From Podospora anserina (taxonomy: Eukaryota), in NCBI GenBank assembly GCA_017654855.1, contig CM030334.1, positions 3,782,001 to 3,846,000 on the forward strand: DNA of 64,000 bases, written 5' to 3'. The position numbers and the translations under genes are program-made. Below the pieces are notes generated by a model. The model saw nothing but the letters and a program-made list of their open reading frames with translations, was not told where the DNA came from and ran no database searches. This document shows positions 21,604-53,491 of this stretch, in pieces. Numbering within the stretch: position 1 is the stretch's first letter; each line of letters begins with the position of its first letter.

Positions 21604-24600
21604 ATGGAGTCACATGTATCTGAAGGACCCATCATGAGCATCCGTCGTGACACAGGTCGTCCGGCTTGTTTCCGCCTTGTTGTTGGTGGCCCCAAGGAGT
21701 CCTGGCTGAAGTTTGACTGCTTCGATTCTGTAAGTATAACTGCTCTCTCCTCTCTCAAACCTTTCCTCCCCCACCCACCAAACCCCTCCACCAAGAGCCC
21801 GCAACTAACACGTTCCTCCTCTCCAAAAGTCGGAATGGGAGCTCACCTGTCCCGGCGTCAAGGCCTGGATCAGCACCCTTCAGGCCAAGCGTGACGTGCC
21901 GTTCCTCCCTTTCGACCTCCCGGAGTTCCCTTTCTTCGTCTTCGGCCCGACCAAGACCATCCAGCAAATCAGCAACATCGGCCCTGGTGCCATTGAACGT
22001 AAGTTGGATCACGCCTCCCTTCCTCTCAGACCAAACCCCTGACCTCCTGCGACAGATGAATACAAGGCCCTCGCCCAGCAATGCAGATCCTCGGACCCTA
22101 TCGAGAAACTCGCTGCCTCCAACCGCCTCCAGGACCTGGGAACTATCATCAACTGGTTACTTGTCTTCTTGGTCCGCCCTTGCGCTTCCCCGCCCCCTGA
22201 TATCAGGTCGTTCTTTGACCACAAGCTTGAAACCGGCGACCCAGTCGCGGACAGCGAAGCCAGCAAAGTCATCCAGGCGATGGAGCGCAGTCCGCAAATG
22301 AACATCCAGTCATTGGAAAGGTTCATCTGCTCGGCTCACCCCTTGCACGTCGCCTTCAAGGTCCTTGCCGCGGTCATTATCAGGTGTCATCAAGTTCGGC
22401 CCCTGCCTCGTCGGGTTCAGCCTGGCACGACGCAGTTCCTCGAGCATCTCGCTGAGATTGCGACCTCGCCATCTCCAACAATCATGGAGGAGTCGCTCCC
22501 TATGGGCAGGCATCCATACACCCAGGTGTTCATCCCCCATGCGGCGGGTGTGAGGAGTAATCACCCTGGTCTACACCCAGCCGGCATCATGATTGCACTC
22601 AACCTCTATCAATTCAGCAGGCTCAAGGAGTTGGGCACAACAAACGATGTGCGGGGGTGGAGGCACCCTGTGTATGAGCCTCGACTCACCAAGCTTCGGA
22701 ATGATCTTATCCGGTACTTTTTGACCTCGGGGAGAAAGGTGCTGTTTGACGAGCTAGTGAGGGTTCAGTGGAGGGTTGACAAGTGGTTTGACCACATCGA
22801 CAGTCCGAAGCGTCCTATGCCGGGCAGTGACGCCAGGACGATGGACACCTATCGGCTTCTGCGTTCGGGGAAGAGTCACCAGGACCCAGCTAAACGGTTG
22901 GAGTTGCTGTTAACGAATGTCCCTGCTGAACCATCGCCGGTGCCAGCTGAGGTTGAAGAGGAGGAGTCAAGCCCCAGCAGGACTGAAGATGAAGCCTCGT
23001 CCTCTGATGAGATGCCAGACCTTAACGAGACCCAGCGGACAGCCCCTTCCTCCCAAAAAGAGCCACGCCCCACCACCGTTGAAGACGAGCCATCCTGCTC
23101 CCATGAAGATTATGGCGAGGACGAAGAGGACGCCTACGAGGACGCCTACGAGGACGACGAGGACGCCTACGAGGACGAGCTGGTCCTTGATATAACATTC
23201 GGCATGCCAATCTCAGACGCCCACCAGGACTTCCTCCCCCCTCGGGTGTCAAACATGATCACATGCATGAAGGCGGCAAAGAGCCTGCTCCAGGGCAAAG
23301 CAGTCATGAAAAGCATGAAACGGGAGACTCTCGAGGCTCGCCGCGACGAGCTGCAAGCCCAGGCGTGCAAGTTGGCGCTTGTGGAGGGCTCGCCGGTCTA
23401 CGAAACGCTGACCAGCGTCCCGTCGGCAGGCGGCTCGTCCCGCGAGCAGGTGCCGACTAGGCTAGCCGAGCTCGGCATGCTGGAGCTCAGCCTGCTGCCG
23501 CCCGGGATTGCAAGACTGTCCGCCGAGCAGAAGGTAGAGCACTTTAAGAGTCTCTGCCACCGACAGGAATTGGAATTAGCCGATATTGTCAAGAAGAAAA
23601 AGGCTGGCCTCGAGGCAAGAGCTCTTCCCCAACCGCCCCAGCCCTCCACATCCCGCCAGGCACAGTTGATGCCGCCGCCTCTGTTGCCCTCCCGCCTCCC
23701 AGATGCCACCAATGCTGAGATCCTCCGGGCTGTTGGAGAACAAGCCGTCCAACATGGAGAACAGCTGAAGGCTGAGCCGAGAGAAGCCAACAATGAGCTT
23801 CTCAGGATACGAATGGCCGAGCTGGAGCCGGGGCGTTCAAGACTGGAAGACGAAGAACTCGAGCGGGCAAGACAAAAGGCCAAAACGATCGAGGTTGAAT
23901 TAGACGCAGCCCAGCAGCAAGAGAGGAAGAGGCAAAGAAAGAACTTGGCCAAGAAAGAGAGACGTCAGGCAAGAAAGCAACTGGAGAAGCAGGCTCTTCA
24001 AGTTGAGCCACAGCCAGCTGAGACGCGAAAGCCTGAGGAGGGGGAACCATCATCGTCCCAGCTTGCATTGATATCGTCGCACTTGCAAGCGGAAGAGGAA
24101 AATTTGTCAGAGGCCGTAACAATCCTGGCGCTGTCCGAGCCTGAGCAGCAAGATGGTGAGCAGGCGGTGGCCACACCGTCTGAGCTTGCCCAAACTCAAG
24201 AAGTCTCGCTTCCAGAGTCAGAATCGAAGGAAGATGGGGAGGGGGCGGCAGGGCCCCCTAAAAGAAACCTTACCGGATGGGACCGCCGAAGGTTGAAAAA
24301 GAGGGAGAGAAAGGATAGAGAGGCCGAGGAGAAACGACGGAGGGAGGAAGAGAAAGCCCGGCAACGCGAGGCGGCCAAGGCGAAAGCCGAAGCCAAAATG
24401 GCCAAGCGACTTGCCGAGGACAAGAAACGCTGGGACGAAGAAAAGAGACAGAGGGAAGAGGAGGAACGTCTCCGGATCGAGAGGGAGGCAGAGCAGTTGG
24501 CGCGAGCGACGGAAGAGTCGCTGCGTCAAGCCAAAGAGGACGAGACCCTTCGCAAGGCAGAAGAGGTTCGGAAGGTGAAGGAGCTGGCAAAGGCCCAGTC

Positions 24601-25186
24601 CGAGGTCAAACCCAAGACCCGGCGTGCCGATGTCAAGTCTCTGGAAACCTGGAGAGCCAAGTCGGTTCCTGCAGAATCCGCAGGACCGGCAACTTCTGTC
24701 TTGCCTGTCCCATCGTCGTCGCCATCGTCTGCCGGCCCTGTTCCCGCCCTGCCGCCCTCGCCCGTCCGAGCTCCGGTGCCTGTGGTCTCGCCCGCTCACC
24801 CTGCTGTTGCTGTGTCCCCGCGCGTGCTCGTGGCTCCGTCTCCGCGTTCGCCCGTGCTTTCGCCCGCTCGGAAGCCCCTGCTTCGGCTTGGGGACGTGAC
24901 TCTTCCAGAGGAGGACTTCGCCAAGACAGGAGAGTCGTTGCTGTTTTCGTCGCACCGGCCTGTGATATCCATACCACAGCGGACAACAACTCCTCTGGCG
25001 ATGAACGTCCCTTCGTCCCCTGTGGTGTTGGCGCCAGTCACACCACCAGTCCCGGAGCCCACGCCGCCACCCTCACCACCACCCGCACCCGCACCCGCAC
25101 CCGCACCCGCACCAGCCCCGGCGCCGGTGATAGACGACGACCCGTTTATCACCAGTGGAGCAGCAGTCGCCGGAAGCTCAGCTTAG
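21604..25186 (+). CDS. Large lineage-specific protein (~1141 aa): acidic, coiled-coil and Pro-rich regions; an in-frame extension to 26032 follows its UAG
   Basis: Exons 21604-21729, 21830-21998 and 22056-25186, with GTAAGT donors, splice into one frame. An alternative in-frame ATG lies at 21535. No domain recognised. Confidence 0.7.
25081..25123 (+). repeat. (CCCGCA)n coding repeat encoding (PA)n
   Basis: Tandem hexamers encoding PAPAPAPAPAPAP. Confidence 0.85.
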
Positions 25187-26032
25187 AAGGCTGAGCAGGC
25201 ATTCAGGCAAGCAGCCGAAGCACGTACCCGTATTGATGGCAGCAGTGCTCACTCTCAGCTCCGAAGTTCTCCTCCCAGAGTGGCTCAGGAAATCGTCGAC
25301 GATGCAGTTCACCGCAGTGTTGAGAGGGCGCGCCTTGTCCACACCCTTGCACTCAGTGGTCGGGAACGTGATGTAGCTCGCCGGGAAGAGGCTGTCGGGC
25401 AGCGGGAATATGCGGTCTGGGATCAGGAACAGGAGCTTTGGCGCGAACAAAAGAAGCTGAAGCAACAGCGGGAAGCATTCCGTCAACAACAGAGAGCGCT
25501 CGATCTCCGTGAGGTTGCCATACGTGGCCGCGAAAATAACCTTGACGCGCTGTTTCATGCCCGGGAACTCCGTCTAGAGGCTCGTGAGGCCGAGGTGGTA
25601 CGACGCGAAAAGGCAGCAAACGAGCGGGACACGGGGGTATATCACCGCATCAGACAGGTTGGTTTGCGAGAAGAGGAGGTGTACCGGCGAGAGATGGCTG
25701 TCTATGAGCTGGAGCAGCATGGCTCTTCATCTTCACCGGATATCACTCCTTTGCCAGAGAGCAACTCCTCTTCACTGGAGATCAACTCCTCGTCATTGGA
25801 GATCAGCTCTTCGCCCATTCGTGGTATCTTCACTTCTTCGGCCGACACCACATGGTCCACAGAGCCGACTGAGAATCAGACAAGTGTAGACATGGAGGAT
25901 CCGGAAAGCAGATATAACTGCAGATTTCACGGTAGTGGCCGTTCAAGGTCAAGTGAGCCTGTTGAACGGAGAAATGAGGCAGTCCATGGAAGTGGCAATG
26001 TCCGTGAAGCACCTTCCTTCAGGAGACGATGA
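25187..26032 (+). CDS. In-frame coiled-coil C-terminal extension of the 21604 gene (no ATG of its own near the start)
   Basis: Same frame as 22169-25186 and open from 25187 to the TGA at 26030. RE-rich coiled coil (REEAVGQREYAVWDQEQELWREQKKLKQQRE...). Confidence 0.6.
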   Translation, partial: KAEQAFRQAAEARTRIDGSSAHSQLRSSPPRVAQEIVDDAVHRSVERARLVHTLALSGRERDVARREEAVGQREYAVWDQEQELWREQKKLKQQREAFRQQQRALDLREVAIRGRENNLDALFHARELRLEAREAEVVRREKAANERDTGVYHRIRQVGLREEEVYRREMAVYELEQHGSSSSPDITPLPESNSSSLEINSSSLEISSSPIRGIFTSSADTTWSTEPTENQTSVDMEDPESRYNCRFHGSGRSRSSEPVERRNEAVHGSGNVREAPSFRRR

Positions 26033-27525
26033 GTACGCCAAAGAAGGGTCTTCGATTTGTTGAGGGCAAAGCAGAGAGAGGAGGTGGGGTTGATGGTATT
26101 GGGAGTGATAAGGGAGGAAGTAACGGAGAAGGGGGCAGGCGTAGGACGAGCAACGATAGAGACAAATGTAGAGTGGGTATGATTAATGTTGTATATGTTG
26201 TTGATACTTGCTGTTGGTGGACTGTGTGAGTGTGTGACTGAAGTCAAGGTGGGGGGGGGGGGGATCAGGGATTGCCAGCCCCGCGTGGGTGTGTGCACGG
26301 CGTGTCCATCACAGGCGGCTCCACTCTGTGTGAGGGCCTAGACTACCCCACTTGGAAGCATTGGCAGAAACTGGGCGCGCAGAATTGTGAATTGCCTGCA
26401 ATTGCCTGGCGAGCTAGCTCATCATGGTCAGTCATGGCGAAACATGAACCTTCCTGAGGTAGTTCAAGAAGCTAACACAAGATCACAGAAGACGATCCAA
26501 ATCTCGTGCCGCCTACAACACTCCCTCGGACCTACCTCCGAGCACAGGTGGAGAAACATCTCCGGTGTCGAGTTATAATTACCTGCCATCATCAAAACGG
26601 CTCAAACGGGAGTTACGGATATCCAACCTAATTATAACCTTAATCATGGCTGTTACATGCCGCCGACGACGGTATGCAGCAAGTCCATCCAACCACTTTC
26701 CGATAGATGAGTCCTCACTCTTCTTGTTCTTCCCTCGTCTTCTTGTGTGGCAATATACTGTGTTGCTGAGGTAGCATCCGCATCGAAAGAGGTCACCTGC
26801 ACCTGCATATGCATCTCTAGAAGAACGTTGAGCTCGGTTGAACAAGAAGATCCCCTCGTCTTATCTGCGATATCATCTTGTCTTTTTCCCCGCCTCAATT
26901 TCCACGGTGAGATTTTAACACCAAGATCGTCACTCTATCTCGCAAACACTGCCCGTCTCCTCCTTCCCGCCCGCCCGGACACCACGCCGGCGCCGAGTGG
27001 TTCAAGAGTGCGGCCCGCAAACACGAAAAGGTGAGTTTCCACACGGCTAGCTCCCCCGGCGTTTTCCTTTCCCCATCCCGGCTAGATTAGCCCGTCGTGA
27101 TACCCCCGTCGCCGAACCTTGGTGCCACTGGTCGCTCAGCACCCGCAAGTGGACCTCTCTCGCGATGGCTTGAAAAGAAAGGGGCCCTGCCCTTGTTTGT
27201 TTTGCCAGAGGGCGGGCGCTCTCTTTCTCGCTCATTGCTGACGAGACTACTCCTCCCCACTACACTCAAAACATCTCAACCCTTGTTGACATCATTTTAA
27301 CTCTTTTTTTTTTCTTAATAGAACTCCAAGAAGTAATATCTTTGACCTTCTTCCCGGCTTCCAATTCACGGCTGGCACCACCTACTTCTGTTTTGCTTTT
27401 TTCTCGGGCACGGCAAACGAGACGGCGGGGAAAACGACATCTTCAACGACAGACGAACCAAGACCCCCTAATAAACCCAATTCAGGCTCAAAACTAAAAT
27501 AATTTGTAATACATCACGCACCAAC

Positions 27526-53399: not shown

Positions 53400-53491
53400 T
53401 CGGGTATGGTGTAGCGGTAACATCGTTGACTCTCACTTCTCAGAAGTGTCTGCTCTCTCAACAGCCCCGGGTTCGACTCCCGGTATCCGAG
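53400..53491 (+). tRNA. tRNA-Glu (CTC), intron-containing
   Basis: Acceptor stem TCGGGTA/TATCCGA, A box TGGTGTAGCGG, anticodon stem GTTGA/TCAAC with CTC at 53432-53434, intron ~53436-53456, T arm CCGGGTTCGACTCCCGG, and a downstream T-run. Confidence 0.85.

What the first reader, a model, noticed from the sequence alone, without database searches (positions are those of the whole stretch)
25176..26032. UAG stop inside a tRNA-anticodon-mimic hairpin splits a ~1420-aa orphan protein: candidate A-to-I editing switch
Seen in the sequence: the long ORF ends at TAG (25184-25186), but the same frame stays open for 281 more sense codons (an RE-rich coiled coil) with no ATG near their start. The stop lies in a perfect hairpin, GCTCAGC-[TTAGAAG]-GCTGAGC (25176-25196), a 7-bp stem with a 7-nt loop. 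The A at 25185 is the third loop base and follows a U, the geometry of U33-A34 in a tRNA anticodon loop. The loop UUAGAAG closely resembles a tRNA-Ser(AGA) anticodon loop. Established: Sordariomycetes (Fusarium, Neurospora, Sordaria) carry out sexual-stage A-to-I mRNA editing using the tRNA A34 deaminase Tad2-Tad3 with the Ame1 cofactor. It favours U at -1, purines at +1/+3 and hairpin loops, and it converts UAG to UGG (Trp) in premature-stop and stop-loss genes. Inference: vegetative cells make a ~1141-aa form, and fruiting bodies make a ~1423-aa form with an added coiled-coil tail.
Basis: partly seen in the sequence, partly recalled or inferred. Interest (0 to 1): 0.85.

Follow-up and report, generated by a model that had tools for sequence, protein, structure and literature searches.

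The report
Likely RNA-edited stop in Podospora gene
A Podospora anserina gene of unknown function is cut in two by a UAG stop in the loop of a strong RNA hairpin, a good but unproven candidate for the fungal RNA editing that rewrites UAG to a tryptophan codon during sexual development.

Summary
An in-frame TAG (25184-25186) sits in the loop of a perfect 7-bp hairpin (25176-25196). It separates a 1141-codon reading frame from 281 further open codons.

The gene is PODANS_3_11440 of Podospora anserina. It is an orphan found only in Podosporaceae and has no Pfam domain.

The TAG is not a sequencing error. It is present in RNA-like contigs of four studies and in two independent Logan ORF calls.

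The tail is real coding sequence:
- It is 74% identical to Cercophora samala, against 59% for the N-terminus.
- It is the only stop-free frame of six.
- 0 of 20,000 shuffles stay open.

The reference annotation bridges the stop with a 180-nt "intron" (25027-25206). This intron has a poor donor (GTTGGC) and no branch site, it contains conserved coding sequence, and parts of it are retained in RNA contigs. It looks like an annotation device.

The site meets every published cis preference of Tad2-Tad3-Ame1 editing: U at -1, purines at +1 and +3, and a stable hairpin loop.

Direct proof is missing. The four contig sets, of unknown developmental stage, read A at 25185.

Verdict: a probable (about 0.55) premature-stop-correction editing site, a new member of a known kind.

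The parts
21605..26032 (+). Whole gene, from ATG to the distal TGA. It is the orthologue/allele of PODANS_3_11440. The product is 1423 aa if the TAG is decoded and 1141 aa if it is not.
   Evidence: sequence and translation. P0032 (CAP61256.1, P. anserina S mat+, 1363 aa) equals the window product minus 60 codons.
21731..21829 (+). Intron 1: GTAAGT donor, CTAAC branch, AG acceptor.
   Evidence: sequence. The spliced reading CFDSSEWELTCPG matches P0032 and the C. samala model P0004.
21999..22055 (+). Intron 2: GTAAGT donor, CTGAC branch, CAG acceptor.
   Evidence: The junction ...GAIEHEYKAL is present in all annotated orthologues.
22056..25183 (+). Exon 3 up to the in-frame stop. It holds a conserved helical N-terminal region, acidic and KRE-rich segments and a Pro-rich linker.
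   Evidence: No Pfam family. Conservation.
25068..25113 (+). CACCCG x 7.7 tandem repeat, encoding (AP)n.
   Evidence: All RNA contigs break here, at 25063/25131.
25027..25206 (+). The 180-nt 'intron' of the reference and sister-species gene models (SSPVV|QAAEA). It is probably spurious.
   Evidence: Deduced from P0032 and P0001-P0003 against the window. Donor GTTGGC and no CTRAY branch. It encodes PEPTPPPSPPPAPAP and DDDPF[IV]T, which are coding in other genera. Positions 25027-25063 and 25131-25206 are retained in RNA contigs.
25176..25196 (+). Hairpin GCUCAGC-UUAGAAG-GCUGAGC.
25184..25186 (+). In-frame TAG. A25185 is the candidate editing target (UAG to UIG, read as Trp).
   Evidence: The TAG is present in RNA contigs of 4 studies and implied by the ORF calls P0005 and P0006, which end ...GSSA.
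25187..26029 (+). Conserved 281-codon tail: an R/E-rich helical core followed by a Ser-rich end and the PESRYNxxFxGxGRSRSS motif.
26030..26032 (+). Distal stop codon, TGA.
26191..26214 (+). Apparent end of the transcript.
   Evidence: contigs of three studies end at 26191, 26213 and 26214, there is an adapter loose end at 26191, and there is no cover over 26256-26400.
21720..21846 (-). Stretch skipped by a CT..AC joint (GT..AG on the minus strand). This is an intron of an antisense RNA that overlaps the 5' end of the gene.
   Evidence: table 5 (run X2). The same joint is used in models P0001-P0003.

Best explanation
This is a premature-stop-correction ('restorative') A-to-I editing site in Podospora anserina gene PODANS_3_11440.

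What the DNA shows: it encodes UAG after codon 1141. In the mRNA this codon is displayed in the loop of a stable 7-9-bp hairpin as U-A-G-A-A, the same geometry as U33-A34 of an ADAT-substrate anticodon loop.

What I infer:
- During sexual development the Tad2-Tad3 deaminase, with its stage-specific cofactor Ame1, deaminates A25185.
- UIG is read as Trp, and the ribosome continues through 281 conserved codons to make a 1423-aa protein.
- Unedited mRNA gives a 1141-aa protein that lacks the R/E-rich tail, or is degraded because of its roughly 1-kb 3' UTR.

The 180-nt intron in the reference annotation is an artefact, drawn to bridge the stop.
For: (1) Taxon. The closest proteins are Podospora spp., and the exact reference gene is PODANS_3_11440. 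Sexual-stage A-to-I mRNA editing by Tad2-Tad3-Ame1 is described as common to Sordariomycetes (PMC11087585, passages; PMC11156358, section 5 and passages).

(2) Cis preferences are all met: U at -1, G at +1 and A at +3 (against PMC11156358 section 5). A25185 is unpaired with probability 0.93 in a hairpin whose stem pairs have probability 0.91-0.93. In F. graminearum 62% of sites lie in hairpin loops, more than 70% of highly edited sites do, and stable hairpins are favoured (PMC4817773, section 14 passage).

(3) The stop is TAG, the only stop that a single A-to-I change turns into a sense codon.

(4) The tail must be translated somehow.
- It is 74.4% identical to C. samala and 61.9% to T. setosa, against 58.6% and 54.8% for the first two upstream segments versus C. 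samala.
- There are 0 stops in its frame, against 4-16 in the other five frames.
- 0 of 20,000 shuffles stay open.
- It has no Met before tail residue 170.

(5) The stop is real and shared.
- RNA contigs of 4 studies carry it.
- The ORF calls P0005 (P. anserina) and P0006 (a distinct relative, 93% identical to the reference protein over the 62% of it covered) both end ...AAVAGSSA.
- All four Podospora gene models skip the same 60 codons.

(6) No credible intron spans the stop. Of 508 in-frame GT/GC..AG pairs, none has a full GTRNGT donor, and none with a donor score of 4/6 or better has a CTRAY branch.

(7) The annotations disagree across genera, as reported for the conserved PSC site of CHE1 in Fusarium (PMC11169179, passage). 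A. backusii is truncated in this linker at ...QSSA, and T. setosa has the tail as a separate 189-aa model.
Against: - No A>G was seen at 25185. Contigs of X1, X2, X4 and X10 all read A. The only differences seen (23411 A>G and 25361 C>T) are strain SNPs shared with the S mat+ reference protein. The stage of the runs is unknown, they are only guessed to be RNA, and contigs drop minority variants, so this is weak evidence against.
- No ORF carrying W at the site appears among the 6 hits or the 1 hit.
- Only about 9% of UAG/UAA triplets are edited in F. graminearum (PMC4817773, passage), so motif fit alone does not prove editing.
- 7-bp hairpins occur at the chance rate in this window (32, against 30.9 in shuffles).
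- No orthologue shows Trp at the aligned column. The T. verruculosa model reads through with other residues and the C. samala model lacks the segment. PMC10776026 (passage) says that PSC TAGs often derive from non-TGG codons, so this is not a contradiction.
- The same RNA contigs also retain the two bona fide 5' introns, and one shows antisense splicing. Spliced sense mRNA is therefore not what dominates these samples.
- Neither sexual-stage expression of the gene nor the presence of TAD2/TAD3/AME1 in this genome was tested; no genome is held.
Confidence: 0.55

Rival explanations
1. A regulated or weak intron removes the stop. This would be either the annotated 180-nt intron 25027-25206 (GTTGGC...TTCAG) or a 60-nt one, 25127-25186 (GTGATA...TTAG), that would excise exactly VIDDDPFITSGAAVAGSSA*. 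Under this reading intron retention gives the short protein and splicing gives the long one.
For: - Both candidates are GT..AG and a multiple of 3 in length.
- The reference and three sister-species annotations use 25027-25206.
- The C. samala model lacks the VIDDDPF...SSA segment.
- Intron retention is the most frequent alternative-splicing event in P. anserina (PMC9801653, passage).
- FgBUD14 has both editing of a PSC site and alternative splicing of the intron that holds it (PMC11156358, passage).
- The RNA contigs also retain the true 5' introns, so they cannot exclude rare splicing.
Against: - Donors GTTGGC and GTGATA match GTRNGT at only 4/6, and neither has a CTRAY branch within 5-50 nt of its acceptor. 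The gene's two real introns have GTAAGT plus CTAAC or CTGAC.
- 180 nt is more than twice the 80-bp mean intron length (PMC9801653, passage).
- The 'intron' encodes PEPTPPPSPPPAPAP, which is coding in C. samala, and DDDPF[IV]T, which is coding in T. verruculosa and A. backusii.
- No joint was seen at 25026/25207 or 25126/25187 in contigs of 4 studies, and those contigs run through 25027-25063 and 25131-25207 without a branch.
Confidence: 0.17
2. The TAG is simply the working stop codon. The 1141-aa protein is the only product in Podospora, and the tail is a recently orphaned former coding region that has not yet decayed.
For: - Divergence within the P. anserina complex is small (tail 95-98% identical). 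An ancestral nonsense mutation could therefore be shared while the frame is still open by inertia.
- RNA contigs show UAG.
- A. backusii is annotated as a 1180-aa protein that ends in this linker.
- GC3 of the tail (0.52) is lower than that of the upstream part (0.66).
Against: - Within the complex the tail is as well conserved as the upstream coding sequence, or better: 98.1, 95.0 and 98.2% against 92.9-97.9%. No model or contig shows a stop or frameshift in its 281 codons.
- This reading does not explain why the stop is TAG, preceded by U, in the top 1.5% of TAG triplets for hairpin stem length (7 of 462).
- T. setosa, C. samala and T. verruculosa keep the tail, down to the PESRYNxxFxGxGRSRSS motif.
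Confidence: 0.17
3. Translational read-through of UAG by a near-cognate tRNA yields a small amount of the long protein without any change to the RNA.
For: The frame is open and conserved after the stop. Read-through extensions are known in fungi (recalled, not from a call).
Against: - The context UAG-AAG is not the UGA-CUA or CARYYA type that I recall as read-through-promoting. This is recalled, not tested.
- The hairpin encloses the stop rather than lying downstream of it, so the ribosome would have melted it before decoding (inference).
- A 281-codon tail that is as well conserved as the rest of the protein argues for more than a trace product (inference).
Confidence: 0.05
4. The TAG is a sequencing error or a private nonsense mutation of this strain.
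For: None was found.
Against: The TAG is present in contigs of 4 independent studies of the S-type strain, which differs from the window at 23411 and 25361. It is also implied in P0005 and P0006. Six probable DNA runs hold 100% of the sampled words of 24000-26100.
Confidence: 0.01

Closest known systems
PSC ('restorative editing') pseudogenes of Fusarium graminearum: PUK1 and about 70 others (PMC4817773; PMC10776026; PMC11156358)
   Same: An in-frame UAG inside an otherwise conserved ORF, with U at -1 and a preference for hairpin loops. The full-length protein needs UAG>UGG. Many of these proteins are disordered or lineage-restricted, and gene models are confused by the stop.
   Different: Editing is not demonstrated here. 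The host is a Sordariales species for which my searches found no published site catalogue (23 papers hold the three terms and 20 were listed; I opened one of them with those terms, and it mentions editing only generically; 0 papers name Pa_3_11440). The stop lies at 80% of the length, so the unedited product would be a large, possibly functional protein rather than a short fragment.
CHE1 conserved PSC site in Fusarium (PMC11169179)
   Same: A PSC TAG in a hairpin loop, conserved among close relatives and causing inconsistent annotation (short or long models).
   Different: CHE1 is edited in vegetative hyphae and encodes a C2H2 transcription factor. Here the stage is unknown and the protein has no recognised domain.
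Stop-loss editing, such as FgDBF2 (PMC13123824, abstract only), and Neurospora Sk-2 rfk-1 with an early UAG and a late UAA (10.1101/2020.12.30.424869, abstract only)
   Same: Editing of a UAG gives a C-terminally extended isoform in the sexual phase, so there are two products from one gene.
   Different: Typical stop-loss extensions are short and unconserved. Here the extension is 281 aa and is among the best-conserved parts of the protein, which makes PSC the better label.
tRNA A34 deamination by Tad2-Tad3 (ADAT2/3) in anticodon stem-loops
   Same: A 7-nt loop on a helical stem, with U before the target A at loop position 3. The loop UAGAA equals positions 33-37 expected for tRNA-Ser(AGA) (recalled, not tested).
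   Different: The stem is 7 bp instead of 5. The rest of the tRNA body is absent. The minimum-energy fold can close the loop to 3-5 nt. No Rfam family matches.

Membership tests
Fungal Tad2-Tad3-Ame1 A-to-I mRNA editing site (PSC class) | A in DNA read as G in sexual-stage RNA at the site | tested here: inconclusive
   contigs of 4 runs (guessed to be RNA, stage unknown) read A at 25185. Contigs drop minority variants. No raw reads and no run on record as perithecial were available.
Fungal Tad2-Tad3-Ame1 A-to-I mRNA editing site (PSC class) | U at -1; A or G at +1 and +3 | tested here: met
   U-A-G-A-A-G. The rule is from PMC11156358, section 5.
Fungal Tad2-Tad3-Ame1 A-to-I mRNA editing site (PSC class) | Target A in the loop of a stable predicted hairpin (+/-30 nt fold) | tested here: met
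   P(unpaired) is 0.93, the stem is 7-9 bp, and only 7 of 462 TAGs in the window do as well. The rule is from PMC4817773, section 14.
Fungal Tad2-Tad3-Ame1 A-to-I mRNA editing site (PSC class) | In-frame TAG with a conserved coding frame downstream | tested here: met
Fungal Tad2-Tad3-Ame1 A-to-I mRNA editing site (PSC class) | The host is a Sordariomycete with TAD2, TAD3 and AME1 | tested here: inconclusive
   The taxon is met (Podospora). The machinery genes could not be searched because no genome is held. A preprint states that ADAT genes are differentially expressed during P. anserina sexual development (10.1101/2024.12.09.627484, passage).
Fungal Tad2-Tad3-Ame1 A-to-I mRNA editing site (PSC class) | Transcript present in perithecia | not testable with these tools
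   Runs are coded and their stage is unknown. Paper supplements are closed.
Spliceosomal intron spanning the stop | GT..AG ends with a GTRNGT-like donor and a CTRAY branch | tested here: not met
   GT..AG pairs exist, but the best donors of plausible length score 4/6 and none has a branch motif.
Spliceosomal intron spanning the stop | A splice joint in RNA | tested here: inconclusive
   no joint near 25027/25206 or 25127/25186. However, the repeat at 25064-25130 breaks all contigs, and the true 5' introns are also unspliced in these contigs.
Programmed stop-codon read-through | A read-through-promoting stop context or a downstream structure | not tested
   The motifs are only recalled. The stop is UAG-A and lies inside the hairpin, not upstream of it.

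The most novel reading that the evidence does not exclude
The UAG hairpin is an editing-gated isoform switch maintained across Podosporaceae. It is such a close copy of an ADAT anticodon stem-loop (a 7-nt loop UUAGAAG on a 7-bp stem) that it may be edited by the basal tRNA enzyme as well as by the sexual-stage complex. That would set a tunable ratio of a 1141-aa form to a 1423-aa form of a lineage-specific protein, possibly in interplay with the antisense RNA over the gene. It would be the first defined recoding site in Podospora, and a minimal natural substrate for dissecting how Tad2-Tad3 recognises mRNA.
Probability: 0.15. Interest if true: 0.65.

Novelty: new member of a known kind. Interest (0 to 1): 0.45.

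Why it matters
If editing is confirmed, four things would follow.

1. The reference model of PODANS_3_11440 and of its orthologues in at least three sister species would be corrected. They currently carry an unsupported 180-nt intron and lose 60 codons.

2. P. anserina, a genetic model with easy crosses, would gain a first concrete premature-stop-correction gene.

3. It would provide a compact, near-ideal hairpin substrate for testing what Tad2-Tad3-Ame1 needs in an mRNA.

4. It would add a Sordariales case to the debate on whether restorative editing resolves trade-offs between survival and reproduction.

If editing is refuted, the locus is still a useful example of how gene predictors hide in-frame stops behind invented introns.

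Tried and rejected
- RNA evidence. The look-up of sequencing runs listed no holder on record as RNA. X1-X14 are only guessed to be RNA. Shares of words held were 0.94-0.96 in three studies and 0.00-0.04 in four others; I do not use this as evidence of stage-specific expression.
- Read laying. Only contigs were available. All break at the CACCCG repeat (25064-25130), so nothing bridges the donor of the annotated intron.
- Search for an edited (W-bearing) ORF in the protein collection. One search gave 6 hits and one search gave 1 hit; none carries W at the site.
- Profile search for more orthologues. It returned the same 6 proteins and did not even list P0008 or P0010.
- Representative search. 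It gave 26 hits. I inspected P0008, P0010 and P0011; P0001 and P0007 were already known. The other 21 were not inspected. Most of their best stretches fall within about query residues 13-200, which includes the Pro-rich linker, and one (P0016) extends to residue 292.
- DNA of relatives. Two metagenome scans found no relative. No fungal genome collection is on hand, and no genome is held for the window. Codon identity, stem covariation and dN/dS in orthologues therefore could not be tested.
- Homology of the A. backusii stop. By eye its ...AAITQSSA* matches the window's ...AAVAGSSA*, but MAFFT aligned it to the second GSSA, 21 codons downstream. I treat this as ambiguous.
- Function of the protein. 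No Pfam family. AlphaFold2 on the first 400 residues of exon 3 with 8 sequences gave pLDDT 41.9, too poor for a fold search, so none was run. The ESM Atlas gave no usable hit.
- Rfam over 24900-25500: 0 matches.
- Paper supplements are closed. The splice and NAT tables of PMC9801653 and the expression tables of 10.1101/2024.12.09.627484 may list this gene, and I could not see them.
Full report
**1. Observation**

GCTCAGC (25176-25182) and GCTGAGC (25190-25196) are perfectly complementary around the loop TTAGAAG, and the TAG at 25184-25186 has its A as the third loop base, after a T. The frame that ends at this TAG (22043..25186) continues open for 281 codons to a TGA at 26030-26032.

From the 5' sequence I read an ATG at 21605 and two canonical introns:
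- 21731-21829, with GTAAGT donor, CTAAC branch and AG acceptor;
- 21999-22055, with GTAAGT donor, CTGAC branch and CAG acceptor.

This gives 1141 codons before the TAG and 1423 codons if it is decoded. The first Met codon of the tail is at its residue 170.

**2. Is it more than chance?**

The hairpin on its own is not remarkable as a class.
- The window has 32 perfect 7-bp hairpins with loops of 3-9 nt, against 30.9 +/- 4.7 in 30 dinucleotide shuffles.
- The 71-nt fold has z = -1.04.

What is unusual is the coincidence of hairpin and stop.
- Only 0.25% of positions lie in such a loop.
- Of 462 TAG triplets, only 7 have the A in a hairpin loop closed by a stem of 7 bp or more in a +/-30-nt fold.
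- This TAG is the one that interrupts the longest ORF of the window.

In the ensemble the seven stem pairs each have probability 0.91-0.93, and A25185 is unpaired with probability 0.93. The loop can also close further, to 5 or 3 nt (-12.1 and -12.3 kcal/mol, against -10.5 for the 7-nt loop). The "7-nt anticodon-like loop" is therefore one of several near-isoenergetic states.

The open tail is far beyond chance.
- Among 17 ORFs of at least 300 codons, the next open stretch in frame is 281 codons here, against 156, 71, 33 and fewer elsewhere.
- 0 of 20,000 shuffles of the tail are stop-free.
- The other five frames hold 4-16 stops.

**3. What the gene is**

The read-through protein finds Podospora proteins.
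- P. pseudocomata QC762_311440, P. bellae-mahoneyi and P. pseudoanserina match at 79-82% identity over the queried region.
- Cercophora samala matches at 68%.
- The exhaustive representative search adds Triangularia verruculosa (P0008) and Apiosordaria backusii (P0010).
- The tail alone finds a 189-aa model of T. setosa.
- The cluster of P0005 contains PODANS_3_11440 of P. anserina S mat+ (P0032, 1363 aa).

The window is therefore P. anserina, but not exactly the S mat+ reference. It differs at 23411 (ACC Thr, against Ala) and at 25361 (CGG Arg, against Trp). These are the only two differences shown by the RNA contigs, so they are strain SNPs and not edits. Position 23411 also has G at -1, which is disfavoured for editing.

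No Pfam family matches any orthologue. An AlphaFold2 model of the N-terminal 400 residues of exon 3 was unusable, with pLDDT 41.9. The ESM Atlas gave nothing. The function of the protein remains unknown, and all homologues found are Podosporaceae.

The neighbouring genes are ordinary: an MFS transporter, a DUF829 protein and a KH-domain protein.

**4. How the annotations treat the stop**

The models disagree from genus to genus.
- P0032 and the three sister-species models all read ...MNVPSSPV(V/A)|QAAEARTR.... They skip 60 codons that contain the TAG. In window coordinates the skipped stretch is 25027-25206.
- A. backusii is modelled as 1180 aa, ending ...DPFVTPSCRSYGDDAAITQSSA inside the same linker.
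- T. setosa has the tail as a separate gene.
- T. verruculosa is modelled straight through, and C. samala lacks the VIDDDPF...SSA piece.

Such disagreement is what PMC11169179 describes for the conserved PSC site of CHE1 (passage read).

**5. Is the annotated intron real?**

It has GT..AG ends, but several things argue against it.
- The donor is GTTGGC, and there is no CTRAY within 5-50 nt of the acceptor.
- No in-frame candidate spanning the stop does better at a plausible length: of 508 in-frame pairs, none has a full GTRNGT donor.
- It is 180 nt long, against a mean of 80 bp in P. anserina (PMC9801653, passage).
- It encodes PEPTPPPSPPPAPAP, which is kept as coding in C. samala, and DDDPF[IV]T, which is kept as coding in T. 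verruculosa and A. backusii.
- Contigs of four studies run from the upstream exon through 25027 to 25063, and from 25131 through 25206/25207 into the tail, without a joint.

A 60-nt alternative, 25127-25186 (GTGATA..TTAG), would remove exactly VIDDDPFITSGAAVAGSSA*, but it is equally weak and was not seen either.

One caveat applies. All contigs break at the CACCCG repeat, and the same contigs keep the two genuine 5' introns unspliced. Run X2 even shows a CT..AC joint, which is GT..AG on the minus strand, at 21720-21846. The RNA in these samples is therefore largely unspliced and/or antisense, and a rare spliced sense form cannot be excluded.

**6. Is the stop real and shared?**

Yes.
- It is in contigs of four studies of the S-type strain.
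- It is in six probable DNA runs that hold 100% of the sampled words.
- It is implied by two independent ORF calls that end ...AAVAGSSA: P0005, which is P. anserina, and P0006, a distinct relative.

Whether the A. backusii stop is homologous is ambiguous. By eye ...AAITQSSA* matches ...AAVAGSSA*, but MAFFT placed it against the second GSSA, 21 codons downstream.

**7. Is the tail coding?**

Yes, by conservation.
- Against C. samala it is 74.4% identical, compared with 58.6%, 54.8% and 75.3% for three upstream segments.
- Against T. setosa it is 61.9% identical.
- Within the Podospora complex it is 95.0-98.2% identical, compared with 92.9-97.9% upstream.

Invariant blocks such as REAEV.RRE.AA..RD.G..HR, GLREE.V.RRE and P E.RYN..F.G.GRSRSS span four genera. 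Something must therefore carry ribosomes past the TAG, or did so until very recently.

**8. Mechanism**

I checked the background in the papers rather than relying on memory.
- Fungal A-to-I mRNA editing is carried out by Tad2-Tad3 with the sexual-stage cofactor Ame1, and is described as common to Sordariomycetes (PMC11087585, abstract and passages).
- More than 70% of sites have U at -1, and A or G is favoured at +1 and +3 (PMC11156358, section 5).
- 62% of sites, and more than 70% of highly edited sites, lie in hairpin loops, and stable hairpins are favoured (PMC4817773, section 14 passage).
- About 70 F. graminearum genes need UAG>UGG correction of an in-frame stop (PMC11156358; PMC10776026). 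These TAGs often arose from non-TGG codons (PMC10776026, passage).

The present site (UUAGAAG in a 7-9-bp hairpin) meets every one of these cis criteria. TAG is also the only stop that one A-to-I change can rescue.

I therefore rank premature-stop-correction editing first (0.55). Behind it come a weak or regulated intron (0.17), a recently orphaned tail (0.17), read-through (0.05) and error (0.01).

What is shown:
- the anatomy of the site;
- conservation of the stop and of the tail;
- the lack of good splice signals;
- the fit to the published motif.

What is inferred:
- the deamination itself;
- its stage specificity;
- the existence of two protein isoforms.

**9. Evidence against, stated plainly**

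- The only RNA-like data available read A at 25185 in all four runs.
- No W-bearing ORF exists in the protein collection.
- Only about 9% of UAG/UAA triplets are edited in F. graminearum (PMC4817773).
- I could test neither the expression stage nor the presence of the editing genes in this genome.
- The tRNA-Ser(AGA) likeness rests on recalled features of anticodon loops, because no tRNA-Ser gene was available to compare.

**10. Novelty and score**

If true, this is a new member of a known kind. It would be a PSC editing site in a model Sordariales species for which my searches found no published site catalogue. It also has an unusually tRNA-like hairpin and an unusually long, conserved extension. 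Interest is 0.45.

The boldest reading that is not excluded is a conserved, possibly ADAT-autonomous isoform switch across Podosporaceae. I give it probability 0.15 and interest 0.65 if true.

Noticed in passing
window 21720-21846 (minus strand): In run X2 the contig skips 127 nt with ends CT..AC, which is GT..AG on the minus strand (minus-strand donor GTGAGC). This indicates a spliced antisense RNA over the 5' end of the gene. The P. pseudocomata, P. bellae-mahoneyi and P. pseudoanserina models use exactly this joint (KFDC|CPGV) in a plus-strand CDS and so lose FDSSEWELT. P. anserina S and C. samala use the canonical intron 21731-21829 instead. The three sister models are probably mis-annotated here.
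   Followed up: partly
window 21731-21829 and 21999-22055: Both canonical 5' introns are retained in the contigs of X1, X4 and X10, and intron 2 is also retained in X2. The RNA covering this gene in those samples is therefore mostly unspliced or antisense.
   Followed up: partly
window 23411 and 25361: The window differs from P. anserina S mat+ (P0032), and from contigs of the four laid runs, at two positions. At 23411 the window has A (Thr) and the others G (Ala); X10 does not cover this position. At 25361 the window has C (Arg) and the others T (Trp). Sister species have Ala and Arg, so each strain carries one derived allele. These are SNPs, not edits.
   Followed up: yes
window 25068-25113: A CACCCG x 7.7 tandem repeat, encoding (AP)n, breaks every RNA contig. 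P0005 has one AP pair fewer than the window and P0006 has more. This is either length polymorphism or collapse of the repeat during k-mer assembly.
   Followed up: partly
window ~60952 (+): A 315-codon ORF ending in TAA is followed by 156 more open codons in the same frame. This is the second-longest continuation after a stop in the window. It may be an intron-split gene.
   Followed up: no
window 53400-53491 (+): A tRNA-Glu(CTC) gene of 92 nt, long enough to contain an intron. It is the only tRNA gene in the window.
   Followed up: no
window 25238-25249: A second GSSA motif (RIDGSSAHS) lies 21 codons after the one that precedes the TAG. It makes alignment of this linker to distant orthologues ambiguous.
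   Followed up: partly
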